Below are positions 1 to 31,806 of a DNA stretch of 64,000 nt, piece after piece (position 1 is the first letter of the stretch; every line of letters starts with the position of its first letter). The stretch is from Spirochaetes bacterium ADurb.BinA120 (GTDB lineage: Bacteria; Spirochaetota; UBA4802; UBA5368). Both the position numbers and the translations under genes were made by a program. The notes beneath the pieces were generated by a model that searched no databases, had not been told where the DNA came from, and worked only from the letters and a program-made list of their open reading frames with translations. The stretch spans positions 5,643 to 69,642 of the forward strand of contig MVZN01000008.1 in assembly GCA_002069125.1 (NCBI GenBank), written 5' to 3'.

Positions 1-3000
1 GTTTCGCTCTCCGATTCGGACTCCCACAGGAGCCCCCATAGGCTTCCCGTCGAGCTGTAGCCGCGCTCGGGCCTTTCCAGATGATAATACGGGATGCCGA
101 GAAGCAGCATGCGCCGCTCGTAGCGCTCGGCCGGTTTAAGATTGCGGTACCACAGCGCCCCCAGGCCCCAGAGCTGGAAGGTGTCGCCGTCGCTCTCCGC
201 GCTCATGTAGCTAAGGAGCGGAGGGATACAGAGCACCCATTCGTCCGAATCGCTCCCATAGTACCAGAACGGAATGAAGCTGTGGCGGAAGTAATCGCCC
301 TCTCGCTTAAGGTTGTAGATGAACCAGAGTAGGCTGAAGTCGTAGCCGTCTCCGGTGCGCGACCACTCGTGGCTTGCAAGGAGGCCCCAGGCCAGGCGGT
401 AGGCCCGGACCTCCGGCGAGACCTCGTAGCTTAACAGGTTGAACGCCAGGCCGTAGCGCTTGTGCCCGGCATCGGCCCACTCCCGACGATCGAAGAGTCC
501 CAGGAGGTTCTGCCGGTTGTAGGCGGGCGAGGAGTGCAGGTATAGCCCCGCTATAAAACGGCTGGATGAGCTTTCCGATTGAGATGAAAAATAGAGGGGC
601 AGAATGAAGCGAGTAGACGCCCGCTCTGAGAGCCAAGAATAATAGAGTGGGAAGAGATGCAGAGACCGCTCGCCCGTGCCGGCGTCGGCGCTTCTCCACA
701 GAAGCAGCTTGAGCGAGCGTTCCTCCCGCGGCGTAGAGGCCGAATAGAAGAGCGGGAATACGTACCGGTAGCTTTTATCCGGCGACGTTCGGGCAAAATA
801 GAAGGGCATAACCCATAGACGGGAGTCCGCGCCGTCGGCGCTCCTCGCGCTATCGACGAGCCATAGCGCGTTGGCGTGCGTATCGCCGTTGTCGGTCGAG
901 CGGTAGAAGAGCGGAACGATCGGAAAGAAGTAGAAACCCGCCTTGCGGCCGTCCACGGTCTCACTTTTTGCGCAGTGCAGAGGGCTGATCGAAAACGAGC
1001 GCGAGTATTTCGTCGCGTCCTCCGCCGCGGCCGAAGCTTTGAAATACAGCGGGCTCGTGGTGCGCTTTATGAGCAGGCCGCTTTCCCTATGCTCCCGGCG
1101 CCAGATAAGCGGGAATATCCTCCAGCCGCTCTTTGCAGGCGAAGAGTACCAGTTGAAGATGGGCCAGAGCACCGTCCTCTCGCGCAGCTCGTTCGTCGCG
1201 TCGTACTCGTCCCAGTACAGGTTTAGCGCATAGCCGCGTTTGAACGAACGACCTTCGCGCTGCATGCCGTACAACGGGAAAAACACAAGGTACTCCGCCT
1301 CGCCCGATTTGTATGAAATGTAATTGAGTATCCATTGTATGCGGTCGTCCGATTCCCTGTCCCAGGTCAGCCAGGAGAGCGGCAGCAGGCGGAAATGGCG
1401 CCTGGAGTCCGCCATCTCGAAGGCCATAAGGCCGAAAAGCAGCCGGAAGCCCCAGAAATACTCGGAATTCTCGCGCGTAAAGGTCTTCTTTTCGCGTATC
1501 TGTACGCCTCCGTCGGGCGTCCCGGCCGCGGATGTATCGATTGGTGTCTCCACTTTCGGCACGCCCGGCCCGTCCTGGCGAGGCGGGCGCGCCAGCGTGA
1601 CTCGAGTCGAGACGCTCACGACATCGTAGAGCCACGAGAGCTCGCTGTCCACATGCCAGCCGCGCTCTCCCCTGCCAAGCCCCAGGCCCACGCCAGGGGC
1701 CGGGCCGGCGGCGACGCTTTTGGACATGCCGAGGATGTTTATGTGCATTTCCCTGTTCGGGCTCTCATAGTCGAAATACAGAGGGAGAAAGAGCGTGATG
1801 TCCCTCTCCGGGGTTTTGCCGTGGAAATAGAGCGGCGCCCAGTACGTGGCCTCCTCGCCCTTTACCGGCGCGCTCCTGCCGTAGTAGATGAGCATCCAGC
1901 GCACCGATTCGTCGGCCGTGCGCTTATTGTAATGAAACAGGCCGTACGAGATGCCCTCGTCGTTTCTCGAACCGGCCGGCCGCATATAGAACGGGAAGGA
2001 GTAGCGATAACCCGATTCGCCCGTTTCGTGGAAGATGATGGGAATCAGCCAGAAGCGTTTAAGGCCGCCCTCGGGCGCGGTGCGCCAGTCGAATACCCAT
2101 AAAAGGTTGCGGTGCGTGCCGTCGATCGCATTCGAGCCCTGGAAGTAGAGCGGGATGACGGGAAACCAGAAGCTCGATTCCAGGCTTTTCCCGGACCACC
2201 GGTCTTCACCGTAGCGGGCGGTAGTGCGGCCGAAGAGCGGTGTGAGTAGGCCGGATGTGTAGATGGCACGAGACTCCTTTTCGCCGGGAACACGGCCGTA
2301 GTCCGTTCCCTTCCACCGGCTAAACAGGGGCAGAAGGTGGGTATAGTACGCACCGTCGGAGTGGCGGTTGTTCAGGAGCAGTGGCGGGAGCAGGTGCGTG
2401 TAGCCGTCGGAGCCAGGCCGGTGAAAGAGAAGCGGCGCGAGCCACAGCCGTGCAAGCCGGTCGCTCCCGTCCTCAGACCTCCAGGAGTAGTCTATAAGCC
2501 ACAGAATATTCCTGTGGCCGTATTTTTGCGTCGTGTGATGATAGGTGAGAGGGATGAGTGGAACCCACCAGGTTCTTTTTTTCAGAGAGCTGTCCCGGTT
2601 ATGCGACGACCAGTAGGCGTGAAGCGGCGAGAGGTTCCAGCGTTCCTCGGCGCCCGGTGCGTAATCGCCGCGGTGGACGGTGTGCTGCGTCCCAAATATC
2701 GGCGAGTAGAAGTACGAATGATCGGCATGGGCCTCCCTGTCGCGGCCCCACCAGAAGAGGTACAGGACAGCCCTGTCGGCGTCGTCGCCGCTGATATTCG
2801 AATAGTACAGCGGGTTTACCATCATGCTCGAATTCCCGTCGCGCTCGCCGTAGTGAAGGAGCAGGGGGATGAAATATCCGCGACGGTCGTCGATCTTGCT
2901 CGTCAGCCGGCACCAGAACGGGAGCAGGCGGAGGGATGTGTACCGGGGATAATCCGTATACTTGAACAGCCACAGGGCCATGAAGGAGTAGTGCCCTTCC

Positions 3001-3188
3001 CAGTCTTCCTTTTCGACGAGAAAGGCGTTGATGCTGTATTTACTCTCCTTCTCGCTTCCGAATACCTTCCGCTCGCCTTCGTCGAGGTCGGACCAGTCGC
3101 ACGCCGCGGCGCTTCCGGCAAGGGCGAGCGTCAAAAGGCATATAACCGCCACTGTACGGCTCGCGCGAATCGCCGCGGTTGCCATCAT
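1..3188 (-). CDS. Large repeat-rich lipoprotein, partial (more than 1060 codons in window; C-terminus beyond position 1)
   Basis: Hand translation of the minus strand from ATGATG at 3188 (MMATAAIRASRTVAVICLLTLALAGSAAAACDW, signal peptide plus lipobox Cys) stays open to the window edge. The protein is built of recurring W/Y-x-x-P-L-F/Y-Y units such as FPLYY, LPLYF, VPLFY and IPLYF. It is absent from the ORF track because its stop lies outside the window. An SD-like GGAGGA sits about 5 nt upstream of the start. Confidence 0.6.
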   Translation of the reverse strand, partial: MMATAAIRASRTVAVICLLTLALAGSAAACDWSDLDEGERKVFGSEKESKYSINAFLVEKEDWEGHYSFMALWLFKYTDYPRYTSLRLLPFWCRLTSKIDDRRGYFIPLLLHYGERDGNSSMMVNPLYYSNISGDDADRAVLYLFWWGRDREAHADHSYFYSPIFGTQHTVHRGDYAPGAEERWNLSPLHAYWSSHNRDSSLKKRTWWVPLIPLTYHHTTQKYGHRNILWLIDYSWRSEDGSDRLARLWLAPLLFHRPGSDGYTHLLPPLLLNNRHSDGAYYTHLLPLFSRWKGTDYGRVPGEKESRAIYTSGLLTPLFGRTTARYGEDRWSGKSLESSFWFPVIPLYFQGSNAIDGTHRNLLWVFDWRTAPEGGLKRFWLIPIIFHETGESGYRYSFPFYMRPAGSRNDEGISYGLFHYNKRTADESVRWMLIYYGRSAPVKGEEATYWAPLYFHGKTPERDITLFLPLYFDYESPNREMHINILGMSKSVAAGPAPGVGLGLGRGERGWHVDSELSWLYDVVSVSTRVTLARPPRQDGPGVPKVETPIDTSAAGTPDGGVQIREKKTFTRENSEYFWGFRLLFGLMAFEMADSRRHFRLLPLSWLTWDRESDDRIQWILNYISYKSGEAEYLVFFPLYGMQREGRSFKRGYALNLYWDEYDATNELRERTVLWPIFNWYSSPAKSGWRIFPLIWRREHRESGLLIKRTTSPLYFKASAAAEDATKYSRSFSISPLHCAKSETVDGRKAGFYFFPIVPLFYRSTDNGDTHANALWLVDSARSADGADSRLWVMPFYFARTSPDKSYRYVFPLFYSASTPREERSLKLLLWRSADAGTGERSLHLFPLYYSWLSERASTRFILPLYFSSQSESSSSRFIAGLYLHSSPAYNRQNLLGLFDRREWADAGHKRYGLAFNLLSYEVSPEVRAYRLAWGLLASHEWSRTGDGYDFSLLWFIYNLKREGDYFRHSFIPFWYYGSDSDEWVLCIPPLLSYMSAESDGDTFQLWGLGALWYRNLKPAERYERRMLLLGIPYYHLERPERGYSSTGSLWGLLWESESESE

Positions 3189-3261
3189 ACCGTCCTCCGG
3201 CCGGGTGATTGAGCTTCAGAGGGAGGGGCGCCGCGGGAATATATCAAGTAAAAATCGCGGG

Positions 3262-4152
3262 CTACTCTGCGAGCCGGCGCACGATCTCGTCGAAGAGGGC
3301 GAAGATGTCCACGGCCTCGGGGACCGAGCCTACGTCGTGGGGAAGCACAACGAGCTTTATCCCGGTCCGCGCGGCGAGATGGTTCGCCGCCGTGGCCGTG
3401 TTGAATACGTCGCGGATTATAAGCGCGGTCCGGTCGGCGGGCGTCTCGGAAAGGATGATGTTCGCCTGTTGCAAAGTGGGCGAAACCCCGGGGGCCGGCT
3501 CGAGCGAGCCCGCGCAGACGATGTCATACCGCCTGAGAAAATAATCGAACAGGGCGTGCCGCTGAATTACGGTGGAGCCCTTTCTGTCGGAAAGCCGCGA
3601 GTCCCATTGCTTCATCCTGCGCTTCCACTCGCCCACGAATGAACGGGCGTTCGCCCGGTAAAGACCGGCGTTCGATTCATCGAGCCTTTGGAGCCTCGCC
3701 GCTATGGCATCCGCGTAAACGGGGATGTTCGCCGGGTCGAGATGGTGATGGGGATTTACCCCGTTATGGGTGAACTGTGGAGTGCGCCTTAGCGTGGTTT
3801 GTCCCTCCGCGATCAGATCCACGAGCTCGGAGAGGTCGAGATGACCGTCCTTTCCGGGTTGGATGGCGGCGTTCTTCGAGCCCTTCAGCATCCCCTCGAG
3901 CCATTCATCCTCGAGACCGGCGCCGTTGACGATCAGGAGATCGGCCTTTCCAATGGCCCGCGCCGCCGCGCCGTTCGCGTTGACGTAATGGGGATGGCTC
4001 GTCCCCGAGGCGAGGGAGTGCACCTCCACCCCGTCGCCGCCCACGATGCGCGTGATGTCGGCGATGTATGGAAAGGCGGTAACGACCAGAACGCGGGCAT
4101 GGATAAGCACGGGCATGAAAAATATGAATGCAATCGTCAGTATGAACCTCAT
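3262..4152 (-). CDS. Metal (Zn/Mn) ABC transporter substrate-binding protein, ZnuA/TroA family
   Basis: Signal peptide MRFILTIAFIFFMPVLIHA and family-typical motifs (His-rich HPHYVNANG; PHHHLDP). The in-window start was chosen at the internal Met that begins the signal peptide. Confidence 0.65.
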   Translation of the reverse strand: MRFILTIAFIFFMPVLIHARVLVVTAFPYIADITRIVGGDGVEVHSLASGTSHPHYVNANGAAARAIGKADLLIVNGAGLEDEWLEGMLKGSKNAAIQPGKDGHLDLSELVDLIAEGQTTLRRTPQFTHNGVNPHHHLDPANIPVYADAIAARLQRLDESNAGLYRANARSFVGEWKRRMKQWDSRLSDRKGSTVIQRHALFDYFLRRYDIVCAGSLEPAPGVSPTLQQANIILSETPADRTALIIRDVFNTATAANHLAARTGIKLVVLPHDVGSVPEAVDIFALFDEIVRRLAE

Positions 4153-6041: not shown

Positions 6042-6710
6042 GTGGCGTCCATAGCGGCGATCTACCGCGCGCTTTACGCATGCCATGGCCCCCAGCGCTG
6101 GTGGCCCGGCGAAACCGATTTCGAGATCGCTATAGGCGCGATCCTCACCCAGAACGTCTCGTGGGCCAATGTCGAGAAGGCCATCCGAAGGCTGAAGGAG
6201 GAAGGGCTTCTCAACCCGAAAGCCCTGCACCGGGAGCCGGCCGAAAGCCTGGCCCAGCTCATACGACCCACGGGCTACTACAACCAGAAGGCCAAAAAGC
6301 TAAGAAATTTTCTGGACTGGTTTTCCGCATACGGCTATTCGTTCGCCCGGCTGGGCGGGATCGATACCGGTCGCCTTAGAAAGGAGCTTCTTGGGATAAA
6401 TGGGGTGGGCCCGGAAACGGCCGACTCTATTCTTTTGTATGCGCTAAAGCGGCGGGTTTTTGTGGTGGATGCCTACACCATGCGGATCTTCGGCCGGATT
6501 GGCGTGCTTGGGGGCGGCGAGGGCTACGCGGAGACGCAGAGTCTTTTTCATCGGCGGTTCGCCGGTGATGTCGCCGAGTACAACGAGTACCACGCCCTCA
6601 TCGTAAATCACGGCAAGTCCGTTTGTAAAAAGAAGCCCCTGTGCGCGGAATGCTGCCTGGCGCGGTATTGCGCCTTTACGGCTTCCCGCCGGGTTTTTTT
6701 ATCCGGATAA
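6042..6710 (+). CDS. HhH-GPD superfamily DNA glycosylase, endonuclease III-like
   Basis: Helix-hairpin-helix-GPD signature (LLGINGVGPETADSILLYAL...VVDAYTMRIF) and a C-terminal Cys cluster (CKKKPLCAECCLARYC). Confidence 0.7.
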   Translation: MASIAAIYRALYACHGPQRWWPGETDFEIAIGAILTQNVSWANVEKAIRRLKEEGLLNPKALHREPAESLAQLIRPTGYYNQKAKKLRNFLDWFSAYGYSFARLGGIDTGRLRKELLGINGVGPETADSILLYALKRRVFVVDAYTMRIFGRIGVLGGGEGYAETQSLFHRRFAGDVAEYNEYHALIVNHGKSVCKKKPLCAECCLARYCAFTASRRVFLSG

Positions 6711-7425
6711 GAGAGCATATCCGGCCCGTGTCGCTCGAGGCGGTCTCCTTGTTGTACAGGTCGAGCGACCATTCCCCATCGATAATATAACAATAACGAA
6801 AATCGCCCCGGTTAAGCTTTTTTCGCAGCCTCCATATGCCGTCGCGGCCGCGCGTCAGCGGATCGTTCTCGGGGTTCCAGTTGTTGAAATCGCCCACCAG
6901 CGAGATCATACGCGCCTCCGGGCGGCGCAGCCGGAATTCAACCGTGTAGTCGTCTATCGCCCGGTAGGTGAGATGGAGACCCTCCGAGGCGTCCAGGCCG
7001 GGCAGTATTGAAACATATGATCCCATGCCATCGTCGTCGCGGATCGGATTGGCCGTATCATGGGTCCACACGCCATCCACGATGAGTTTATAGCGCGGAC
7101 GTTCCTCCCCGGGCTCACGGACGAGAAAGTGATACCATACGCCGTTCTCACCCCGTTCCATTGGCAGGGGCTTCCAGTGCGAGAAGTCCCCGGCCAGAAG
7201 GACGCGTCGCGCCGAGCGGCTTTTATACGTAATCAGGGTACCCCTTTCCACCACCTGTTTCTGTCGTCCCGTGTCGTACCGGATCAGTTTCATTTCCACC
7301 GGTGTTTGCGCGTTCCGAAGAAAGCGAAGCTGGTAGTGGCTTTTCTCCCCTGGTGGTCCGCCCTCCATGGGGGCTGAGGCGACGAGCAGTACCGGCAGAA
7401 GCGCGAAGATGGTGCGGAATCCCAT
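6676..7425 (-). CDS. Secreted protein with two CBM48/AMPK-beta-like glycogen-binding (E-set) domains
   Basis: Signal peptide MGFRTIFALLPVLLVASAP. It has two repeats of the LAGDFSHWKP / LVGDFNNWNP type typical of CBM48 and isoamylase N-domains. Its 3' end overlaps the glycosylase gene convergently by 35 nt. Confidence 0.55.
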   Translation of the reverse strand: MGFRTIFALLPVLLVASAPMEGGPPGEKSHYQLRFLRNAQTPVEMKLIRYDTGRQKQVVERGTLITYKSRSARRVLLAGDFSHWKPLPMERGENGVWYHFLVREPGEERPRYKLIVDGVWTHDTANPIRDDDGMGSYVSILPGLDASEGLHLTYRAIDDYTVEFRLRRPEARMISLVGDFNNWNPENDPLTRGRDGIWRLRKKLNRGDFRYCYIIDGEWSLDLYNKETASSDTGRICSLIRIKKPGGKP

Positions 7426-7702
7426 GTGCGAGGACCTCTGTGCCAAAATGAGTTACAGCGATATAGTACTTATGTCGATAACTAAAGAGAAAATATTTAT
7501 GTAAAAAAGGATCGTTTCCGGAATTCCGCGCCCGGCCTCGAGCGAAGATGGCGCTTTTCTTCCGCATGACGCGCGGTGGCACGAAAAGTAATTGCTTTTT
7601 ATAAAACGATGGATTCTTCTGAATTATGTCGCTTTTTGGCCCGTCGCGACGCACGAAGCTTAGGGTCGAAGCGAACAATCCGCCTCGGGACTGTAAACGG
7701 TG

Positions 7703-10700
7703 ATGGGCGATAGCGAAGAAAGAACAGCGTACACCCCGGAAGAGCAGAACGAGATCGACAGGATACTGGGACTTCTGCCCGGCGAGCAGACGGAAAAGGG
7801 CCCTGCCGAAGCCGCTCAGGGGCCTCCATCGGGGGAGCCCGGGGGTTTCGAAGACGAGCTCGATCTGAGCTCCGACCTCGTCGAACTGGATGAAACGCCC
7901 CCGCCCGCCTCGGATGAGATAGAGGACATTACCGATATCATCGAAATGGTGGAGGAGCCGCCCGCAGACGAGGTCGCCGATCTCGAGGAGATCGGCTTTG
8001 ACGAAGCGGCGGTCGAGGTCCCGACGGAGATAGAGGCGCCGCCCGGAGAAGAGCCTGCGGCCTTGGAGGAGGCCCCATCTCCGCCGAAGAAAGTTGGAAA
8101 GGCCCGCACCTCGATAGAGGAGCTTGACGAGCTCACCTCGATGGAGCCCGAATCGGTCGATTTACAGGATGTTTCCGACGACCGCTACGTCGAAGAGGCT
8201 GAGGCCCAGAGGGGGCCGATCGCTGAAGAAGCCGCCGGTCCGGAGGAATCCATCGACTCCTTCGACATGGACCTGGGGCCGATCGAGGAGCCCTTTCAGG
8301 CGCCACCCGAAGTGCATATCGAGAAAGAGCCCGAGTTCGACATTGGCGCCCTTTCCGATATCTCCGTCGAGGAGATGCAGGACATGCCCGAGGCCGGCGC
8401 GGCCGATATACCCGAGATAGACCTGGGCGACATGGTCCCGGAAAGCGACCTGCCGTCAAGCCCGCCTCCCGCCGCTGACTTCATGGGGGATTTTCAGGAC
8501 GAGGGGATCCCCGAGCCACTCAGTATGGAGGAAACGCCGCCTCAGGCCCGAAGGGCCGCGCCATCGCCCGATCTCGATATCGGGATGGAGCAGGAGGAGA
8601 TTATTCCCGGCATCGGCCGCATCGAGGAGGCGGTAAGCACCGAGGAGATTCCGGATGTCGAGGAGGAGCCGCCGCCGGAGGTCGAAAAACCCAGGAAGGG
8701 GCGCGCCAGGGCCCGCGAGGAGGAAGAAGACGATCTTTCCGAGCGCGACATCAAGCGCCTCAAAAAGGCGCTATTGCTGTTCCATCCCGCGCTACGAAAG
8801 GCAGTCAAGGAAGCCATCTTAAACGACATCCTGCCGCCCCGGGACTCCCGGCAGCTCATCGATATGATCCTCTCGGGAAAATCCGAGGAGAGCATAAACC
8901 GATTTCTGGAGGGAAAACTCGGCCGAAGCATCGATATAAGCGAAGGCCCGGCGCCGGGAAGGCGCGTGCTAACCTCGCGTCCCGAATACACCCGCGAGGG
9001 ACTGGAGCGCCAGAAGCGCCTGTTCAAGGCCACGCGCATTGGGGCGATAGCCGCGCTGGCCGCCTTTACAGTCACCATACTGAGCTATCAGTTCATCTAC
9101 AAGCCCGTGATGGCCAAACGGCTTATCAAGGAAGGTGTCGCTCTTATCCGCGAACAGGGCGATCCTGTAACCAAGAAAGTGAAGGATTACGAGAAGGCCG
9201 AGACGCTCTTCTCCAGGGTGGACAACGATTACGCCAAGGACTATCTTCCCGGATACAACGCCTACGGCCGGGCCTATTTGGACAGGCGTGAATTTGAGCT
9301 CGCTCTTGGAAAGCTCGAGCGGGCCAATAAAATCAATCCGGTCGATATCGAGACGCTCAACAACCTGGGCTATTTCTACTCCAGGGTGCCGGAGGGCGTA
9401 TATAACAGGATCAAGAAGGCCGACGAGAAGGAGTCGAGGCTAGACAAGGCGATCAAGTACTACAAATACGTCCTAAACCGCAAGCCCGGCAATGAGACGG
9501 CACTCTACGGTATAGGGAATGCGTACATGCACTTGGGGCAGTACGTCAAGGCCCGCCAGTATTATGAGGACATACTCAAACAGGACAGCAAGTCGGTCGT
9601 GGGCCATTCCGGGCTTCTAAACCTCTACATCGAACGCGACGTAATGCCGCGGGTGATGTCCATCCACTCCGACCTCGTGGACAAAAAAATGCTCACCGAT
9701 CTCCCGTCGCCCCTCCTCGGGAAGCTTGCGGCCTATTACATCGGGAAAAAACGCACGGACAGCGTAAATATCCGCGTGGATTACGGGGTCCAGTCCACGC
9801 GATTCAAGGACCCGGCGGACAATCCGTTTCCGGCCGCGAAGGCCGTTCTGGAGGCGCTCCACCAGAAGGACCCGCATTACGCGCAGCAGTACGTGCTTTA
9901 CGCGAGGCTTAACCGGGGGGAGGGGAACCTGAAGCTTATGGAAAACTATGCCGAAAAGGCCTGCAAAGAGATGCCCAATTACTTTGCGGCCCTGCACCTG
10001 CTCGGCGAGTACCATTATCTGGTCAAGGAACCTGCAAAGGCCTACGGGCTTTTCCGGGAGGCAGTGAAGGCCCACGGCTCGCCGCCCGACTTTACCCTCG
10101 AGGATTTCTATTACAAGACCGAGAACCTCGGAAACACCTATTTTCTAATGGGCAATATCTTCTATTACTTCTTCGACAAGGTCAGATACCGTTTCGGCGA
10201 CGAGCTCGAAGAGGAGCCGCTGGACGCCGAACTCGAACAGCAGGCCAATTATACCATCGCCCGCGAAAAGTACGAGGCGGCGCTAAAGGAGGGCTTCGAG
10301 TCGCCCGAGCTCTTCTATAATCTGGGCCGTATCGATTACATGAACGGCCGTTACGAGGCCGCGCTCAACCGCTGGCTCGCGCTCAATGAGGAGTCCGTGG
10401 ACAGCCCCGAGGTAATGCTCGCCATGGGCAACGCCTTTTATCACCTCGACAACCTTCAGGCCGGGCGCGGCGAGTACCTAAAACTCATTTCAATCTTCGA
10501 GCGGCAGGCGGAATCGATTAGCAAGGTATTCCCGGACCGGGCCGACCATGTGAAGATCTTCCAGACGCTTGCCACGGCCTACAACAATCTGGGCGCGATA
10601 TACGAGCTTAGAAAAGATGAAACCCGCAGCAACGTGAGCTACTGGAAGGCCATAGATTACGCGAAGCGCATCGACCGGGAGAACGAGTTCGCACGGGTAA

Positions 10701-10801
10701 ACATGGCCCGCGCCTTCAAGGAGCGGAGCGAGCCAATTAGGCCCATCCTCGACGAAAACATCCCCTTCAGTCTGGGAGTGTACAGCAAGGAGATGCGCTG
10801 A
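7703..10801 (+). CDS. Membrane-anchored TPR-repeat protein with a roughly 450-aa acidic, Pro/Glu/Asp-rich N-terminal region
   Basis: The 1033-aa ORF begins GTG 7700 then ATG 7703. The N-terminal low-complexity acidic region is followed by one predicted TM helix (IGAIAALAAFTVTILSYQFIY) and multiple TPR-like repeats (YNAYGRAY, YGIGNAYMHLGQY, YNLGRIDYMNGRY). Confidence 0.7.
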   Translation: MGDSEERTAYTPEEQNEIDRILGLLPGEQTEKGPAEAAQGPPSGEPGGFEDELDLSSDLVELDETPPPASDEIEDITDIIEMVEEPPADEVADLEEIGFDEAAVEVPTEIEAPPGEEPAALEEAPSPPKKVGKARTSIEELDELTSMEPESVDLQDVSDDRYVEEAEAQRGPIAEEAAGPEESIDSFDMDLGPIEEPFQAPPEVHIEKEPEFDIGALSDISVEEMQDMPEAGAADIPEIDLGDMVPESDLPSSPPPAADFMGDFQDEGIPEPLSMEETPPQARRAAPSPDLDIGMEQEEIIPGIGRIEEAVSTEEIPDVEEEPPPEVEKPRKGRARAREEEEDDLSERDIKRLKKALLLFHPALRKAVKEAILNDILPPRDSRQLIDMILSGKSEESINRFLEGKLGRSIDISEGPAPGRRVLTSRPEYTREGLERQKRLFKATRIGAIAALAAFTVTILSYQFIYKPVMAKRLIKEGVALIREQGDPVTKKVKDYEKAETLFSRVDNDYAKDYLPGYNAYGRAYLDRREFELALGKLERANKINPVDIETLNNLGYFYSRVPEGVYNRIKKADEKESRLDKAIKYYKYVLNRKPGNETALYGIGNAYMHLGQYVKARQYYEDILKQDSKSVVGHSGLLNLYIERDVMPRVMSIHSDLVDKKMLTDLPSPLLGKLAAYYIGKKRTDSVNIRVDYGVQSTRFKDPADNPFPAAKAVLEALHQKDPHYAQQYVLYARLNRGEGNLKLMENYAEKACKEMPNYFAALHLLGEYHYLVKEPAKAYGLFREAVKAHGSPPDFTLEDFYYKTENLGNTYFLMGNIFYYFFDKVRYRFGDELEEEPLDAELEQQANYTIAREKYEAALKEGFESPELFYNLGRIDYMNGRYEAALNRWLALNEESVDSPEVMLAMGNAFYHLDNLQAGRGEYLKLISIFERQAESISKVFPDRADHVKIFQTLATAYNNLGAIYELRKDETRSNVSYWKAIDYAKRIDRENEFARVNMARAFKERSEPIRPILDENIPFSLGVYSKEMR

Positions 10802-10868: not shown

Positions 10869-10979
10869 GTCGCATTCGCATAATCCAATCCAGATCGTTT
10901 TTGCCCGGGCATATCCAGGCGTGGCTCCTACAGGGGCCTTTTTTACGGCAGCGCCGGTATGCCGGGCGTGGAAAAAGGA

Positions 10980-13799
10980 ATGAAACCGGAGATATCGACA
11001 ACAGCCGAAGACCTATTCACGTTCGTGCCGGAGGAACCGGCCGAATACGGTATACAGGGCGAGGACGAAATCCGCTCGCTTCTGGAAGCCGGAATCCTTC
11101 CTGCCGGCCGGCGCTTCGAGCTGCGCGCGGAGTCCTGCGCTCTTCGCCTTGCCCACGCCAACGACAAGATACTCTCGCTCTCCAATTCACGCACGCGCAT
11201 ACTGGCCCACCAGGTCGAGAGCACGCACCGCATCGTGAACAGCCTCAACAAGCGCTTCATAATAGCCGACGAGGTCGGTCTGGGCAAGACCATAGAGGCG
11301 GGGCTGGTCATCAAGGAGCTCGTCTACCGTCACGCGTATTCAAGGATACTCATTGTCGCCCCCGCGTCTCTACTTCTTCAGTGGCAGCACGAGATGGAAA
11401 ACAAGTTCAACGAGCGCTTCGAGGTGCTCGACCGGCGCTTCATCCGCCGCGCGGAGGCCCTGTGGGGGCGCGGGTCCAACCCCTGGCAGTATTGCGAAAA
11501 GGCGATATGCTCGCTTGACTTCATCAAGAACAGGGCGTTCGGCGAGGCCCTGGCCTCCTCCCGATGGGACGCGGTCATTTTCGACGAGGCGCACCGCCTG
11601 CGCCGCGATTCGCAGCGCAGCACGCTGGCGTATAATGTCGCCGAGGTCCTGTCGCGCAATGCGCGCTCTCTTCTTCTACTTACGGCGACCCCGTTCCGCG
11701 GAAAAATCGAGGAGCTCTACTATCTGGCGCGGCTCGTAGACAAAAACCTTCTGGGCCCGTTCCAGACCTTTTATAACCGATTTTGCGCGGACGACGCCGA
11801 CCTTGCGGAGCTTCGCGACCGCCTTTCGTCGGTGCTCATCCGCCGGACCAAAAAGGAGGTCGGAGGTTTTACCCGTCGCTACGCACGCACGGTGCGTTTC
11901 GAACTGTACCCCGAAGAGCGCGAGCTCTATGACGCGACCACCCGCTATGTGGTCGAGGAGTTCAACAGGGCCATGCAGTCGGAAAACAGGGCGGTGGGAT
12001 TTGTCATGACCGTATTCCAGAAACTCCTCGACTCCTCCTCTTACGCGCTTCTCTCCGCGCTTGCAAAGAGGCGGGACAACCTTGCAGGCATGCTCGAGCG
12101 CGCCGAATCCCTCCTCGGGACGGATGGGTTCGATCCCGATGACGCCGACATAGACGACGAAAACGCGGACGAATCGCTTGCCGCGCCCGCCCGTAAAAGC
12201 GCCTCGGAGATTCGCGAGGAGATCGCCACGCTGGACCGCCTGCTCGTTCTCGCTCGCTCCATAGAGCGCAATAAAAAGGGGGAAAAACTATTGTCCCTTC
12301 TGCGCCAGCTTCGCGGGAAGGGATGCGCCAGGTTCGTCATATTCACGCAGTTTCGCACTACCCAGGAGTATCTCCACGGCCTTCTCCGTGGATTTCGGGT
12401 AGCGCTGTTTCACGGATCCATGGACAGGGACGAGAAGGAGAGGGCCATCCTCGAGTTCAAGGAAAACGCAGAGGTGCTCATCTGTACGGAGGCGGGAGGC
12501 GAGGGGCGCAATATGCAGTTCTGCAACGTCCTCATCAATTACGATCTTCCCTGGTCGCCGCTCAAAATCGAGCAGCGTATCGGGAGAATTCACAGGTTCG
12601 GCCAGCCGCACGACGTCTTTATCTACAACTTCTCGACCAGGGATACGGTCGCCGAGCGCGTTCTGGAGGTGCTGGAGAAAAAACTCAGGCTCTTCGAGGA
12701 GTCGATCGGGGTGCCCGACGTTTTGCTTGGCCGGATTGAGGACGAGCTGGCGCTCTCGAGACTGTTCATGGAAATGGCGGTCGGAGGGAGCCCGCGCCGA
12801 AAGCTCCTCGCCGAGATCGACGAAAAGATCGAGAACGCGCGCAGGAGCTATGAAAAGCTCTCCGAACTTACAGTTATGCGAAATATGGATTTCAATTACG
12901 ACGAGTATTACTCCATAACCATGAAAGAGCGGCGGTTCTCCAACCGGCGCATAGAGCGTTTCGTCGAGCGCATGGCCGGGGAGGACGGACTGGTCGGCGA
13001 ATATCTCGGAAGAAGGAGCCCCAGGACAGGGCTTTACAGGATAAAGCGCCTCCACGGCCGCGCGCCCGAGCTTCCGCGCTTCGGAAGTTTCGACAGCAGG
13101 GTGGCGCTCGAAAACGAGGGAATGGAGTTTCTCGCCTTCGGACACCATATAGTGGACACCCTCTTCGAGCGATGCGTTTCCGACGACTTCGGCGGAAAGA
13201 CCGGCGTCAAGCAGATACGGTATCGTCAACCATACAGTGGCATGGTCTTCTGTTATCTGGTCACGTTCAACGCGCATTCGAAGACGCAGGAGCTCTTCGT
13301 GGTGGCGTCCGACGGAACAGGAAGGGGGGAGGGAGACCTCGATGAGATCGAAAGGGAGTTTATAGAACAGGAGGGGATGGAACTCGATTCCGATGAGCTT
13401 AAAAGCCAGGTCCAGGCCGTCATGGCGAATATGGATCGATGCTTCGAGGAGTCGCGCCTGAGGCTGTGGAAAAGGGTGGAGCGCAGGCTCGACGAGCTGC
13501 GGGAAACCCTGGGGCTGTCGATGGATCCGGAAATCGAAAAGATAACCGAGGCGTCCGAAAGCCGAATAAGGGAGCTTTCGGAACAACTCGAGCGGCAGGA
13601 ATGCAGGCAGAAGTGGTTCGGCAAGGACATGCGCGGCGCGCTCACCCGCACGAGGAATGAGATCGCACAGGTGGAGCTGGAGCGGGATAGGCTGCTTTCA
13701 GCCTGCAGGCGCTACCGTGAGGCGAAACCGGAGGCGCGGCTTGTGTGCGCCGGGGTACTGATCGCCCTTCCCGAAACGTTCAGCTCAAATGCTTCTTGA
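10980..13799 (+). CDS. SNF2-family ATP-dependent helicase, RapA/HepA-like (RNA polymerase-associated)
   Basis: SNF2_N motifs (IIADEVGLGKTIEAG; DEAH-like VIFDEAH; LLLTATP) and helicase C motif (YDLPWSPLKIEQRIGRIHRFGQ). Size and domain order resemble RapA. The ATG at 10980 is preceded by an AAAGGA RBS; the ORF-track start is 10959. Confidence 0.7.
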   Translation: MKPEISTTAEDLFTFVPEEPAEYGIQGEDEIRSLLEAGILPAGRRFELRAESCALRLAHANDKILSLSNSRTRILAHQVESTHRIVNSLNKRFIIADEVGLGKTIEAGLVIKELVYRHAYSRILIVAPASLLLQWQHEMENKFNERFEVLDRRFIRRAEALWGRGSNPWQYCEKAICSLDFIKNRAFGEALASSRWDAVIFDEAHRLRRDSQRSTLAYNVAEVLSRNARSLLLLTATPFRGKIEELYYLARLVDKNLLGPFQTFYNRFCADDADLAELRDRLSSVLIRRTKKEVGGFTRRYARTVRFELYPEERELYDATTRYVVEEFNRAMQSENRAVGFVMTVFQKLLDSSSYALLSALAKRRDNLAGMLERAESLLGTDGFDPDDADIDDENADESLAAPARKSASEIREEIATLDRLLVLARSIERNKKGEKLLSLLRQLRGKGCARFVIFTQFRTTQEYLHGLLRGFRVALFHGSMDRDEKERAILEFKENAEVLICTEAGGEGRNMQFCNVLINYDLPWSPLKIEQRIGRIHRFGQPHDVFIYNFSTRDTVAERVLEVLEKKLRLFEESIGVPDVLLGRIEDELALSRLFMEMAVGGSPRRKLLAEIDEKIENARRSYEKLSELTVMRNMDFNYDEYYSITMKERRFSNRRIERFVERMAGEDGLVGEYLGRRSPRTGLYRIKRLHGRAPELPRFGSFDSRVALENEGMEFLAFGHHIVDTLFERCVSDDFGGKTGVKQIRYRQPYSGMVFCYLVTFNAHSKTQELFVVASDGTGRGEGDLDEIEREFIEQEGMELDSDELKSQVQAVMANMDRCFEESRLRLWKRVERRLDELRETLGLSMDPEIEKITEASESRIRELSEQLERQECRQKWFGKDMRGALTRTRNEIAQVELERDRLLSACRRYREAKPEARLVCAGVLIALPETFSSNAS

Positions 13800-28177: not shown

Positions 28178-31618
<3,441 letters not shown>

Positions 31619-31806
31619 GACGGGAACCCGCCTATGGTCGGGCAAAGGGGACATAATTTCAAGCACATTAATCAAAAAAATTCCGGCATATTTTTATTGA
31701 CTGATTTTCGGGCGGCTTCGATACTCCGCCTTGACGGTGCGTTTACGTTCCGTGCCGCCCTCCCGGCGCGCCCGGGCGACAAATCCAATAGGTGCGGCTG
31801 GCAATC

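What the first reader, a model, noticed from the sequence alone, without database searches (positions are those of the whole stretch)
1..3188. Lipoprotein of more than 1060 residues built from degenerate aromatic-Pro-Leu-Phe/Tyr-Tyr repeats, invisible to the ORF track
Hand translation of the minus strand gives an uninterrupted reading frame from the ATGATG at 3188 to the window edge. The ORF track shows only spurious antisense ORFs here. The protein has a signal peptide with a lipobox Cys and dozens of roughly 40-50-residue units, each carrying a motif like W-x-x-P-L-F-Y, L-P-L-Y-F or F-P-L-Y-Y separated by Gly/Asp/Arg-rich turns. I could not assign this periodic architecture to a known family. 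It suggests a large beta-solenoid or propeller surface protein.
Basis: seen in the sequence. Interest (0 to 1): 0.55.

Follow-up and report, generated by a model that had tools for sequence, protein, structure and literature searches.

The report
Giant greasy-edged beta-ribbon envelope protein
This is a real, nearly complete gene for a secreted 1093-residue protein of the uncharacterised LA_1737 family of Leptospira-like spirochaetes, predicted to be a very long one-layer beta-sheet ribbon with one oily and one polar edge; it is already catalogued but nobody knows its function.

Summary
The minus strand from 3188 to the window edge is one open frame of 1062 codons. It has a GGAGGA ribosome-binding site and dN/dS of 0.15-0.20 against relatives. 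Independent assemblies give identical DNA and add the last 31 codons, so the full protein is 1093 aa and is identical to GenBank OPZ38881.1, annotated "hypothetical protein".

The protein does belong to a named family: NCBIfam NF047486, "LA_1737 family protein". This family is confined to Leptospirales, includes pathogenic Leptospira, and has no literature. The "lipobox" Cys30 is an Arg/Cys polymorphism within the species and is absent from most of the family.

The basic repeat is a beta-hairpin of about 17-18 residues, not a 40-50-residue unit. AlphaFold2 predicts about 103 short strands. The fold matches single-layer beta-meander ribbons (CPAP G-box, MORN, OspA), not propellers or solenoids. 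The hairpin tips alternate strictly: 49 are hydrophobic (Leu/Pro/Phe) and 49 are polar (Gly/Asp/Glu). A meander therefore has one continuous greasy edge.

My best inference is a cell-envelope ribbon whose greasy edge is buried in a membrane leaflet or a protein interface, with conserved end blocks and a length set by repeat number. The function is untested. Interest is moderate.

The parts
1..3188 (-). Coding sequence, codons 1-1062 of 1093. The last 31 codons and the stop lie 94 nt beyond the window edge.
   Evidence: Open frame. Protein 100% identical to P0119/OPZ38881.1. DNA identical to L060 and L061, which supply the 3' end ...TGFKKFSVLKLLYKRVEMDGEVRHQVLGIGF*. dN/dS 0.15-0.20.
3193..3198 (-). 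Shine-Dalgarno sequence GGAGGA, 4 nt upstream of the ATG at 3188
   Evidence: Read directly from the sequence.
3102..3188 (-). Signal peptide, residues 1-29 (MMATAAIRASRTVAVICLLTLALAGSAAA): Arg-containing n-region, hydrophobic core, A-A-A cleavage motif
   Evidence: Sequence. All homologues have a comparable N-terminal hydrophobic leader before the conserved DWSDLDEGE motif. No signal-peptide predictor was available, so cleavage is inferred from the AXA rule.
3099..3101 (-). Codon 30, TGC (Cys).
   Evidence: Codon read. 4 of 13 cluster members have Cys and 9 have Arg. 118 of 135 family members have no Cys within 3 residues of the conserved Trp.
2874..3101 (-). Conserved N-terminal block, residues 30-105 (DWSDLDEGE..FGSEKE.KY...W..HYS...KYTDYP.Y.S.R.LPF...SKID.R)
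   Evidence: Highest conservation in the alignment: top-residue frequency 0.65 for residues 51-100. Many invariant or near-invariant columns.
1704..2873 (-). Hairpin-repeat array 1, residues 106-495. It contains a length-variation hot spot at residues 351-400.
   Evidence: AF2 strands. Homologues carry on average 131 extra residues here.
1512..1580 (-). Pro/Gly/Ala-rich low-confidence linker, residues 537-559
   Evidence: pLDDT below 50. The only long inter-strand loop in the strand map.
1089..1481 (-). Conserved central block, residues 570-700 (..FWG...LFG..A.E.AD..RHFRLLPLSW.TWD...)
   Evidence: Top-residue frequency 0.60-0.62 and almost no insertions. The peptide LPLSW[IL]TWD was conserved enough to serve as the genome-scan pattern.
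594..1088 (-). Hairpin-repeat array 2, residues 701-865. It contains the second length-variation hot spot, at residues 751-800.
   Evidence: Homologues carry on average 185 extra residues here. AF2 strands.
1..593 (-). Conserved C-terminal block, residues 866-1062, continuing to residue 1093 outside the window. It is predicted to be a 25-strand single-layer beta-meander.
   Evidence: AF2 pLDDT 90.1. Foldseek matches to G-box, MORN and OspA. This block lies at the extreme C-terminus of nearly all of the 150 listed of 954 representative proteins.
6..359 (-). Match to NCBIfam NF047486 LA_1737_Cterm, residues 944-1061, cut off by the window edge
   Evidence: E = 7e-22, 78.1 bits, cutoff 60. The full-length protein scores 110.8 bits over profile positions 7-157 of 158.

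Best explanation
SHOWN. The region encodes an LA_1737-family protein (NCBIfam NF047486) of an uncultured Leptospirales-type spirochaete from anaerobic-digester metagenomes. The protein is Sec-exported and 1093 residues long. Behind the signal peptide it consists of about 49 beta-hairpin repeats of about 17-18 residues. Each hairpin has one hydrophobic tip (consensus Phi-Phi-P-L-Phi, usually followed by Tyr/Phe/Trp) and one tight polar tip rich in Gly, Asp and Glu.

PREDICTED (AlphaFold2 and Foldseek). The hairpins form an extended single-layer antiparallel beta-meander ribbon of about 103 strands, up to about 50 nm long if straight. The ribbon falls into three stretches separated by low-confidence linkers. 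Its architecture resembles the CPAP G-box, MORN arrays and the central sheet of OspA. Links in a meander alternate between the two edges, so all 49 greasy tips lie on one edge and all 49 polar tips on the other.

INFERRED. Such an amphipathic ribbon cannot be free in water. Its greasy, aromatic-flanked edge is most likely embedded in the interfacial zone of an envelope membrane leaflet. It would stand on the membrane like a fence. I consider the periplasmic face of the outer membrane the most probable site.

The three conserved blocks (N-terminal, central, and C-terminal ending in hydrophobic-x-Phe) would be the specific docking or capping elements. Two expandable repeat arrays set the length, which ranges from about 0.9 to 2.5 thousand residues across the family. 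On this reading the protein is a structural scaffold or strut of the Leptospirales cell envelope. It is not an enzyme, a toxin or a transporter. Lipidation is not part of the family mechanism.
For: Family membership: NF047486 scores 78 and 111 bits against a cutoff of 60. 102 homologues were found, all from spirochaetes or Leptospirales where named, apart from a few distant hits (one Myxococcales). The genome scan returned 52 loci from Leptospira, Turneriella, Leptonemataceae and spirochaete MAGs (one titled only 'uncultured bacterium').

Export: a signal-peptide-like leader is seen in most full-length family members inspected, and there is no later TM-like stretch.

Repeats: profile self-alignment E = 5e-40. 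Hydropathy period peaks at 17-18.25 residues in five of six members, with power 138-238 against a shuffle maximum of 98 or less.

Fold: the full-length model has pLDDT 80.6 and 103 strands of median length 6. The C-terminal block has pLDDT 90.1. Its best PDB matches are CPAP TCP10/G-box (probability 1.0, TM 0.39-0.49), MORN1 (TM 0.32-0.34) and OspA. The full-length hits with probability about 1.0 are also ribbon-type: teneurin YD sheet, engineered OspA and a ciliary central-apparatus chain (7sqc_9A).

Amphipathic edges: 98 links split 49 hydrophobic to 49 polar, and 98% of adjacent pairs alternate, with 0 of 10,000 permutations reaching that. Family-mean hydropathy is +1.61 for hydrophobic links and -1.86 for polar links. 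Wimley-White interfacial energy is about -3.0 kcal/mol per greasy tip (sum -148) and +3.6 per polar tip. 37 of 49 greasy tips are followed by an aromatic residue.

Conserved ends and variable middle.

Stand-alone gene: no neighbour is conserved across clades.
Against: No experiment exists for any family member; the literature searches were empty.

The 3D arrangement rests on AlphaFold2 alone. I could not inspect coordinates or PAE. The full-length pTM is only 0.41, so the ribbon may fold back on itself or pair with a partner instead of binding a membrane.

TM-scores to G-box and MORN are moderate (0.5 or less), with rmsd of 7.6-11 A for the best matches.

A twisted single-layer sheet cannot keep one edge in a flat membrane over 50 nm unless it is segmented or coiled.

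Which membrane, and which face, is a guess.

The C-terminal Phe/Leu/Ile is not strictly terminal in all members.

Homology to G-box or MORN is not detectable by sequence.
Confidence: 0.45

Rival explanations
1. Self-zippering or polymerising ribbon. The greasy edge is buried by protein rather than lipid. Either two ribbons (two molecules, or the N- and C-terminal halves of one) zip edge-to-edge, or molecules join head-to-tail through the conserved N- and C-terminal blocks. The result would be a periplasmic or extracellular filament or sheet, as CPAP G-box domains form fibrils.
For: The N-half (residues 88-488) and C-half (636-1009) are internal duplicates (hhalign E about 1e-24). The ends are the most conserved parts. 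The closest fold analogue, the G-box, is a single-layer sheet; that it polymerises is my recollection of the literature, not a tool result. The low pTM (0.41) leaves the higher-order arrangement open.
Against: AlphaFold2 did not confidently fold the halves together. No multimer prediction was possible. The aromatic flank beside the greasy tips (37 of 49) is more typical of membrane interfaces than of protein cores.
Confidence: 0.2
2. Surface-exposed fibrous adhesin or matrix protein. The conserved C-terminal block ending in hydrophobic-x-Phe acts as an outer-membrane targeting or anchoring signal, and the ribbon projects from the cell.
For: It is a large, repeat-number-variable exported beta protein with paralogues, including a tandem pair in L020 and two copies in genome OW818666.1. 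The C-terminus ends in Phe, Leu or Ile in 76 of 92 members, with alternating hydrophobic residues, resembling an OMP beta-signal. It is conserved in pathogenic Leptospira.
Against: No beta-barrel, autotransporter, T1SS or other secretion or anchor domain is detected. Strands are too short (median 6 residues) to span a membrane. The C-terminal block is built from the same hairpins as the rest of the protein. A water-exposed fibre would not be expected to carry 49 greasy tips. dN/dS of 0.15-0.20 does not suggest immune-driven diversification.
Confidence: 0.15
3. One reading: a lipid-anchored lipoprotein folded as a beta-solenoid or multi-propeller.
For: This window's allele has Cys30 after L-A-G-S-A-A-A, and the same allele is present in 4 of 13 near-identical sequences. 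Multi-propeller proteins (DDB1, LRP) appear among the full-length Foldseek hits.
Against: Arg replaces Cys in 9 of 13 conspecific sequences, and 118 of 135 family members lack a Cys there. The -3 position is Ala, not Leu/Val/Ile. Propeller hits have probability 0.3-0.7 and TM below 0.1 for the full-length model, and TM 0.20 or less for the C-terminal block, against 0.39-0.49 for ribbons. No solenoid hit appears. No propeller or solenoid repeat family is found in Pfam even at E up to 1.
Confidence: 0.05
4. An Rhs/YD-type spiral shell that encapsulates a cargo or toxin, or an AsmA/TamB-like lipid-transfer groove spanning the periplasm.
For: Teneurin YD shells, Rhs cocoons, TcdB2-TccC3 and the ApoB100 lipid-binding beta-belt are the top Foldseek hits for the full-length model (E 5e-8 to 2e-3).
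Against: All these hits have TM 0.1 or less, so the similarity is local meander only. There is no DPxGL Rhs core motif, only 3 YD dipeptides and no C-terminal toxin domain. No RHS_repeat, AsmA, DUF490 or TamB Pfam hit is found. The protein has a cleavable signal peptide rather than the N-terminal membrane anchor of AsmA-like proteins. Strands are 6 residues long, against roughly 8-12 in those folds (my recollection; not measured here).
Confidence: 0.05
5. A zinc- or metal-homeostasis accessory protein co-expressed with the ZnuA-like binding protein immediately upstream.
For: A znuA-like gene ends 73 nt upstream on the same strand with no terminator-like site between. A ZIP transporter lies two genes downstream. 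A 44%-identical relative has CDF and Cu/Zn-SOD genes nearby.
Against: The adjacency is limited to close relatives with overall conserved synteny. In L003 a GH4 gene replaces ZnuA. Leptospira, Turneriella and other clades have unrelated neighbours. The protein is not His- or Cys-rich (2.9% His, 4 Cys).
Confidence: 0.05

Closest known systems
LA_1737 family protein (NCBIfam NF047486, LA_1737_Cterm); type member Leptospira interrogans LA_1737 (AAN48936 / Q8F5E5; Copenhageni AAS70638 / Q72QP6)
   Same: The score is above the curated cutoff. The match lies at the extreme C-terminus. The protein has the same N-terminal DWSDL...FGSEKE.KY block and the same hairpin repeats. The taxonomic range is the same (Leptospirales).
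   Different: It is shorter (1093 aa against 1538 aa) because it has fewer repeats at the two hot spots. It is only about 24% identical to the L. interrogans protein. The family has a name but no known function or structure.
CPAP/SAS-4 G-box (TCP10 C-terminal domain), e.g. PDB 4bxr, 4ld3
   Same: It is the best structural match for the C-terminal block (probability 1.0, TM 0.39-0.49). Both are elongated single-layer antiparallel beta-meanders of about 20 short strands with no conventional hydrophobic core.
   Different: There is no sequence similarity. The G-box is a eukaryotic cytoplasmic centriole protein of about 20 strands, whereas this is an exported bacterial protein of about 103 strands. 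As far as I know, the G-box is not described as having a strictly greasy edge.
MORN-repeat arrays (Pfam PF02493), e.g. MORN1, PDB 6t69, 6t68
   Same: Both are tandem beta-hairpin repeats forming an extended single-layer sheet (TM 0.26-0.34, probability 0.98-1.0). MORN proteins are classically discussed as membrane-associated scaffolds (literature knowledge).
   Different: The MORN unit is about 23 residues with a YxGxW..G...GxG signature. Here the unit is about 17-18 residues with a Phi-P-L-Phi-Y signature. There are no MORN motifs and no Pfam hit.
Borrelia OspA central single-layer beta-sheet and engineered OspA hairpin extensions (PDB 2fkj, 2ol7)
   Same: Both are water-exposed single-layer beta-sheets made of consecutive hairpins. 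OspA recurs as a Foldseek hit for both models.
   Different: OspA is a 273-aa lipoprotein with globular end domains. It has no repeat periodicity or greasy edge, and the sequences are unrelated.
YD/Rhs repeat ribbons (teneurin, Rhs, TcB-TcC) and the ApoB100 beta-belt
   Same: All are very long antiparallel beta-hairpin repeat ribbons. They have the best E-values for the full-length model.
   Different: Global TM is 0.1 or less. Those folds have longer strands. This protein has no YD or DPxGL motifs, no enclosed cargo domain and no closed shell.

Membership tests
LA_1737 family (NCBIfam NF047486) | HMM score at or above the curated cutoff of 60 bits | tested here: met
   78.1 bits for the window-truncated protein. 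110.8 bits for the full-length P0001, covering profile positions 7-157 of 158.
LA_1737 family (NCBIfam NF047486) | The domain lies at the extreme C-terminus of a protein of about 1000-2500 aa, with an N-terminal signal peptide and full-length homology to L. interrogans LA_1737 | tested here: met
   The match covers residues 944-1091 of 1093. tblastn aligns query residues 32-1091 to the L. interrogans locus L051, whose product is AAN48936 (LA_1737). In almost all of the 150 listed representatives (of 954) the best match to the block reaches the C-terminal end.
Bacterial lipoprotein (SPase II substrate) | A conserved lipobox [LVI][ASTVI][GAS]C at the end of the signal peptide | tested here: not met
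   The window has A-A-A-C, with Ala at -3. The Cys is polymorphic (4 Cys and 9 Arg among near-identical sequences) and absent in 118 of 135 family members. No lipoprotein predictor or experiment was available for this allele.
MORN repeat (PF02493) | Pfam HMM hit, or a roughly 23-residue YxGxW..G...GxG unit | tested here: not met
   No Pfam family at E up to 1. Zero MORN-like motifs. Period about 17-18 residues. Only an architecture-level fold resemblance.
TCP10_C / G-box | Sequence homology to the CPAP/TCP10 C-terminal domain | tested here: not met
   No Pfam hit. There is no PDB sequence or profile hit to CPAP. Fold similarity is TM 0.39-0.49.
Rhs / YD-repeat proteins | YD repeats (RHS_repeat HMM), a closed shell, a DPxGL aspartyl-protease core end and a C-terminal toxin | tested here: not met
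   No Pfam hit. No DPxG[LWF] motif and 3 YD dipeptides. Foldseek TM 0.1 or less.
Beta-propeller arrays (WD40, PQQ/BamB, YWTD, Kelch and others) | Four-stranded blades closing into toroids, with propeller repeat HMM hits | tested here: not met
   No repeat-family hit in Pfam. For the C-terminal block, propellers (BamB, WIPI, LDLR YWTD) give TM 0.13-0.20 against 0.39-0.49 for ribbons. For the N-terminal and central parts only the full-length model was searched; propeller hits there had probability 0.3-0.7 and TM below 0.1.
Integral outer-membrane beta-barrel protein | Membrane-spanning amphipathic strands of about 9 or more residues closing a barrel, plus a C-terminal beta-signal ending in an aromatic residue | tested here: inconclusive
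   Strands have a median of 6 residues and are polar (family hydropathy -0.72). No barrel-type Foldseek or Pfam hit was found. The C-terminus does end ...VLGIGF, and the last residue is F, L or I in 76 of 92 members. The barrel feature is not met; the beta-signal-like motif is present.
AsmA/TamB-like lipid-transfer proteins | An N-terminal membrane anchor, a continuous hydrophobic beta-taco groove, and AsmA or DUF490 HMM hits | tested here: not met
   No Pfam hits. No such Foldseek hits. The protein has a cleavable-type signal peptide with an AXA site.

The most novel reading that the evidence does not exclude
LA_1737-family proteins define an unrecognised class of bacterial envelope architecture proteins. 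They would be roughly 50-100 nm single-layer beta-ribbons that insert a continuous row of about 50 or more Leu-Pro-Leu/aromatic hairpin tips into one membrane leaflet, forming a molecular fence or hem. They might also polymerise end-to-end through their conserved terminal blocks. In either case they would stiffen, partition or shape the outer membrane or periplasm of Leptospira and its relatives. Nothing comparable to this edge-on mode of membrane binding by a beta-sheet is known to me from bacteria.
Probability: 0.15. Interest if true: 0.7.

Novelty: new member of a known kind. Interest (0 to 1): 0.4.

Why it matters
The gene itself is ordinary in one sense. An identical protein is already in GenBank as "hypothetical", and NCBI has a family model for it. 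The family, however, is a blind spot. It has about 950 clusters at 50% identity and is present in every pathogenic Leptospira checked, as a 1538-aa protein. It has no Pfam model, no structure and no paper.

The analysis gives a concrete, testable picture: a giant one-layer beta-ribbon with a strictly greasy edge, conserved ends and a tunable length. If the ribbon really sits edge-on in a membrane or forms filaments, it would be a new structural element of the spirochaete envelope. It would also be a new example for protein-repeat and design work on single-layer beta-sheets. If it proves surface-exposed in pathogens, it would be a conserved antigen candidate.

Tried and rejected
- **Pfam:** the scan of the protein at E up to 1 found nothing. 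Five long or divergent relatives gave only a spurious PetN fragment.
- **PDB sequence and profile searches:** they found nothing meaningful; HEPN at E 0.2 is chance.
- **RNA genes:** Rfam and tRNA scans of the window found none.
- **Literature:** searches for LA_1737, LA1737, Q8F5E5, Q72QP6, AAN48936, AAS70638, WP_000594761, NF047486 and LIC12047-12050/12065-12071 found no paper on this gene. LIC12048 and LIC12047 turned out to be different genes (LA1762/4, LA1765/6), and LIC12071 could not be mapped.
- **Genome scan:** The search for related loci with the 84-sequence alignment failed because no stretch was conserved enough. It worked with a 20-sequence alignment.
- **Conserved neighbours:** all-vs-all clustering of flanking ORFs from 59 loci found only clade-level synteny and a heterogeneous cluster of signalling proteins. 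An operon-based functional inference was therefore rejected.
- **Paralogues in the window:** the other large window ORFs were considered and rejected. They are a TPR protein, an SNF2 helicase and DnaE.
- **Motif checks:** Rhs, RTX and MORN motif checks were negative.
- **Model inspection:** I could not inspect model coordinates or PAE, so twist, curvature and inter-segment packing remain unknown.

Full report
**1. The observation**

Translating the minus strand from 3188 to base 1 gives 1062 codons with no stop, beginning ATGATG. The mechanical ORF list omits this frame because it does not report ORFs that run off the source. Everything it does list between 1 and 3188 is on the plus strand or in another minus-strand frame.

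A GGAGGA Shine-Dalgarno sequence lies at 3198-3193, 4 nt before the ATG. Against three relatives of 77-88% amino-acid identity, dN/dS is 0.15-0.20.

The protein is 100% identical over all 1062 residues to P0119. This is GenBank OPZ38881.1, "hypothetical protein, Spirochaetes bacterium ADurb.BinA120", 1093 aa. Two independent metagenome assemblies (L060, JGI; L061, ENA) carry DNA identical over the 3188 nt, with 0 (L060) and 1 (L061) differences in the 6000 nt upstream. They extend the frame by 31 codons (TGFKKFSVLKLLYKRVEMDGEVRHQVLGIGF) to a stop.

The frame is therefore a real gene, not an artefact, and only 94 nt of it are missing from the window.

**2. Family**

Pfam finds nothing, even at E up to 1. 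PDB sequences also give nothing.

NCBIfam does give a hit above its curated cutoff: NF047486 "LA_1737_Cterm / LA_1737 family protein". It scores 78 bits on the truncated protein and 111 bits on the full-length protein. Leptospira interrogans LA_1737 itself (AAN48936 / Q8F5E5, 1538 aa) scores 270 bits.

A homology search returned 102 proteins of about 650 to 1860 aa. Where a source names them, all but a few distant hits (one labelled Myxococcales) are from Spirochaetota, Leptospirales, Leptospiraceae or Leptospira.

A scan of species-representative genomes found 52 loci. Nearly all were in Leptospira (including L. interrogans, L. borgpetersenii, L. noguchii, L. alexanderi and L. alstonii), Turneriella, Leptonemataceae and spirochaete or Leptospirales MAGs; one MAG was titled only "uncultured bacterium".

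An exhaustive profile search with the C-terminal block found 954 cluster representatives at E of 1e-3 or better, and 154 at 1e-30 or better. The best match to the block lies at the extreme C-terminus in nearly all of the 150 listed, and lengths reach 2524 aa.

No relative carries any Pfam domain. No paper mentions the gene under any identifier I could derive.

**3. Lipoprotein claim**

The N-terminus looks like a Sec signal peptide: MMATAAIRASRTVAVICLLTLALAGSAAA followed by the mature start.

The Cys at residue 30 is not a family feature. The 99%-identical P0001 has Arg there. Among the 13 members of the 90%-identity cluster that carry the N-terminus, 9 have Arg and 4 have Cys. The codon here is TGC.

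Family-wide, the mature N-terminus is typically (R/x)-[DS]-W-[SD]-D-L-D-E-G-E...FGSEKE.KY. 118 of 135 members have no Cys within three residues of the Trp.

The A-A-A-C box is also non-canonical, with Ala at -3. Lipidation of this particular allele cannot be excluded, but it is not how the family works.

**4. Repeat anatomy**

Profile-against-self alignment gives off-diagonal matches with E = 5e-40 spanning residues 64-1090. It also shows that the N-half (88-488) resembles the C-half (636-1009).

The hydropathy power spectrum peaks at 17-18.25 residues in five of the six family members tested. P0048 peaks at 20.25, with 18.25 second. Peak power is 138-238, against a shuffle maximum of 98 or less. 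About 20 strict P-[LIVFM]-x-aromatic motifs occur, often 17-18 residues apart.

The unit is therefore about 17-18 residues, not 40-50.

Conservation is concentrated in three blocks: residues 30-105, 570-700 and about 1000-1093. Length differences among homologues are concentrated at two hot spots, residues 351-400 (mean +131 aa) and 751-800 (mean +185 aa).

The C-terminus is strongly conserved...LWGLLWEYETESETGFxKFSILKxLYKRVxxxGExxHxVLGIxF. The last residue is Phe, Leu or Ile in 76 of 92 sequences.

**5. Predicted structure**

AlphaFold2 on the full-length protein with an 84-sequence alignment gives mean pLDDT 80.6 and pTM 0.41. The model is entirely beta, with 103 strands of median length 6 and a median start-to-start spacing of 9. 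Low-confidence linkers lie at 496-501, 537-559, 819-824 and 857-871.

Foldseek against the PDB returns long antiparallel beta-ribbon proteins. These include teneurin YD shells, ApoB100, Rhs cocoons, TcdB2-TccC3, engineered OspA and a ciliary central-apparatus chain (7sqc_9A), as well as multi-propeller proteins. All have TM 0.1 or less, so the similarity is local only.

To get an interpretable match I modelled the C-terminal block alone (residues 866-1093, 42 sequences). The model has pLDDT 90.1, pTM 0.63 and 25 strands.

Its best matches are these:
- CPAP TCP10/G-box domain: probability 1.0, TM 0.39-0.49.
- MORN1: TM 0.32-0.34.
- OspA variants.

Propellers such as BamB, WIPI and LDLR-YWTD reach only TM 0.13-0.20, and no beta-solenoid or transmembrane barrel appears.

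The prediction is thus an extended single-layer beta-meander ribbon. With 103 strands at 4.8 A each, it would be up to about 49 nm long if straight.

**6. The key feature**

I mapped the sequence onto the strand map of the model. The hydrophobic motifs (LPL, FPL, LWL, APL, LWGLL, LLGIP and others) fall in every second inter-strand link. The other links are tight polar turns such as GD, DG, NG, GE and PE.

Using family-averaged hydropathy, the 98 classifiable links split into 49 hydrophobic (mean +1.61) and 49 polar (mean -1.86). 98% of adjacent pairs alternate, and 0 of 10,000 permutations reach that level. The strands themselves are polar, at -0.72.

In a meander, successive links lie on opposite edges. 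One edge is therefore a continuous row of Leu/Pro/Phe/Ile/Trp tips, 37 of 49 followed by an aromatic residue. The other edge is Gly/Asp/Glu.

On the Wimley-White interfacial scale (values from memory of the published scale), a greasy tip averages -3.0 kcal/mol, summing to -148. A polar tip averages +3.6 kcal/mol.

**7. Context**

In the window the gene follows a ZnuA-family binding-protein gene (3262-4152, minus strand) by 73 nt, with no terminator-like site between them. Further upstream are genes for an FGase, an AsnC-type regulator, an HhH-GPD glycosylase, a CBM48 protein and a 1033-aa TPR protein.

Downstream, outside the window, a thioredoxin-reductase-like gene converges and overlaps the stop codon by 4 nt. 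A ZIP transporter gene comes next.

This arrangement is shared only by close relatives. A 44%-identical relative has a GH4 gene in place of ZnuA. Leptospira has murJ and a PF1765-like gene upstream. Other clades have MacB/OEP, UvrC or SpoIIE phosphatases as neighbours.

Clustering all flanking ORFs from 59 loci found no neighbour conserved across clades. The gene acts as a stand-alone unit. Paralogues exist: a tandem pair in L020, and two copies on contig OW818666.1.

**8. Interpretation**

Shown: this is an exported member of the LA_1737 family, built from about 49 amphipathic hairpins.

Predicted: it forms a single-layer ribbon with one greasy edge.

Inferred: the greasy, aromatic-flanked edge must be buried. 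The most economical solution for a stand-alone exported protein is insertion into the interfacial region of an envelope membrane leaflet. The conserved N-terminal, central and C-terminal blocks would act as caps or docking sites, and two expandable arrays would set the length. That would make it an envelope scaffold or strut.

The main rival is burial by protein, either edge-to-edge zippering of the duplicated halves or of two molecules, or head-to-tail filaments as in the G-box. A surface fibre anchored through the beta-signal-like C-terminus is possible but fits the greasy edge poorly. The lipoprotein, propeller, solenoid, Rhs-shell, TamB-like and zinc-related readings are each contradicted by specific tests; the evidence is given under rival explanations and the membership tests.

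**9. Novelty and verdict**

The sequence is already deposited and the family is named, so this is a new (in fact already catalogued) member of a known but uncharacterised kind.

What is new here is the architectural description. The family fails every sequence test for MORN, G-box, YD and propeller membership while sharing the single-layer ribbon architecture. Its strictly alternating greasy and polar tips are unusual.

Interest is moderate (0.4). The finding is a well-defined, testable hypothesis about a conserved but ignored protein family of Leptospira. It does not demonstrate a new mechanism.

Noticed in passing
window 3262-4152 (-); L060 10352-11242: The gene sits between a solitary ZnuA-family solute-binding protein gene (73 nt upstream, same strand, no znuBC adjacent) and a ZIP-family metal transporter gene two genes downstream. 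A 44%-identical relative (L003) instead has CDF and Cu/Zn-superoxide-dismutase genes nearby. This is a loose metal-homeostasis neighbourhood, limited to this clade.
   Followed up: partly
window 3099-3101 (-), codon 30: There is an Arg/Cys polymorphism (CGC/TGC-type) exactly at the predicted signal-peptide cleavage site. It occurs within one species-level cluster (4 Cys, 9 Arg). In some strains it could switch the protein between SPase I processing and lipidation.
   Followed up: partly
L020 5983-11181 and 11318-15823; contig OW818666.1 (P0010 and P0040): Some genomes carry two family members, in one case as a head-to-tail tandem pair. The family therefore expands by duplication as well as by internal repeat gain.
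   Followed up: no
P0093-P0102, e.g. P0102 from a Myxococcales MAG: Distant exported proteins outside the spirochaetes carry 22-38 of the same P-L-x-aromatic hairpin motifs, and some pass the NF047486 cutoff on internal repeats. They lack the LA_1737 N- and C-terminal blocks. The hairpin repeat is therefore more widespread than the named family.
   Followed up: partly
L004/L005 6177-8008; L051 4073-5668: Within the genus Leptospira, the LA_1737 gene is preceded by the lipid II flippase gene murJ (Pfam-annotated in L004/L005; a clustering ~531-aa ORF in the other Leptospira loci). In L004/L005 a small PF1765-like (DUF167) gene lies between them and overlaps the start of LA_1737. The upstream synteny is genus-level, in 12 loci.
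   Followed up: partly
L060 9279-10202 (just beyond the window's left edge): A convergent thioredoxin-reductase-like flavoprotein gene (Pyr_redox_2, 307 aa) overlaps the stop codon of the ribbon-protein gene by 4 nt.
   Followed up: no
window 2337-3212 (+), 1335-2102 (+); L008 6490-9258 (-): Long antisense ORFs (291 and 255 aa here, 922 aa in a relative) run inside the gene. This is typical of sequence with about 60% G+C and is a trap for ORF-based annotation.
   Followed up: no
window 7700-10801 (+), 10959-13799 (+), 28178-31675 (-), 6676-7446 (-): The other large genes of the window are unrelated to the finding: a 1033-aa TPR protein, an SNF2/helicase-family protein, DNA polymerase III alpha (DnaE) and a protein with two CBM48/AMPK glycogen-binding modules. 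No tRNA gene or Rfam family was found anywhere in the 64 kb.
   Followed up: partly
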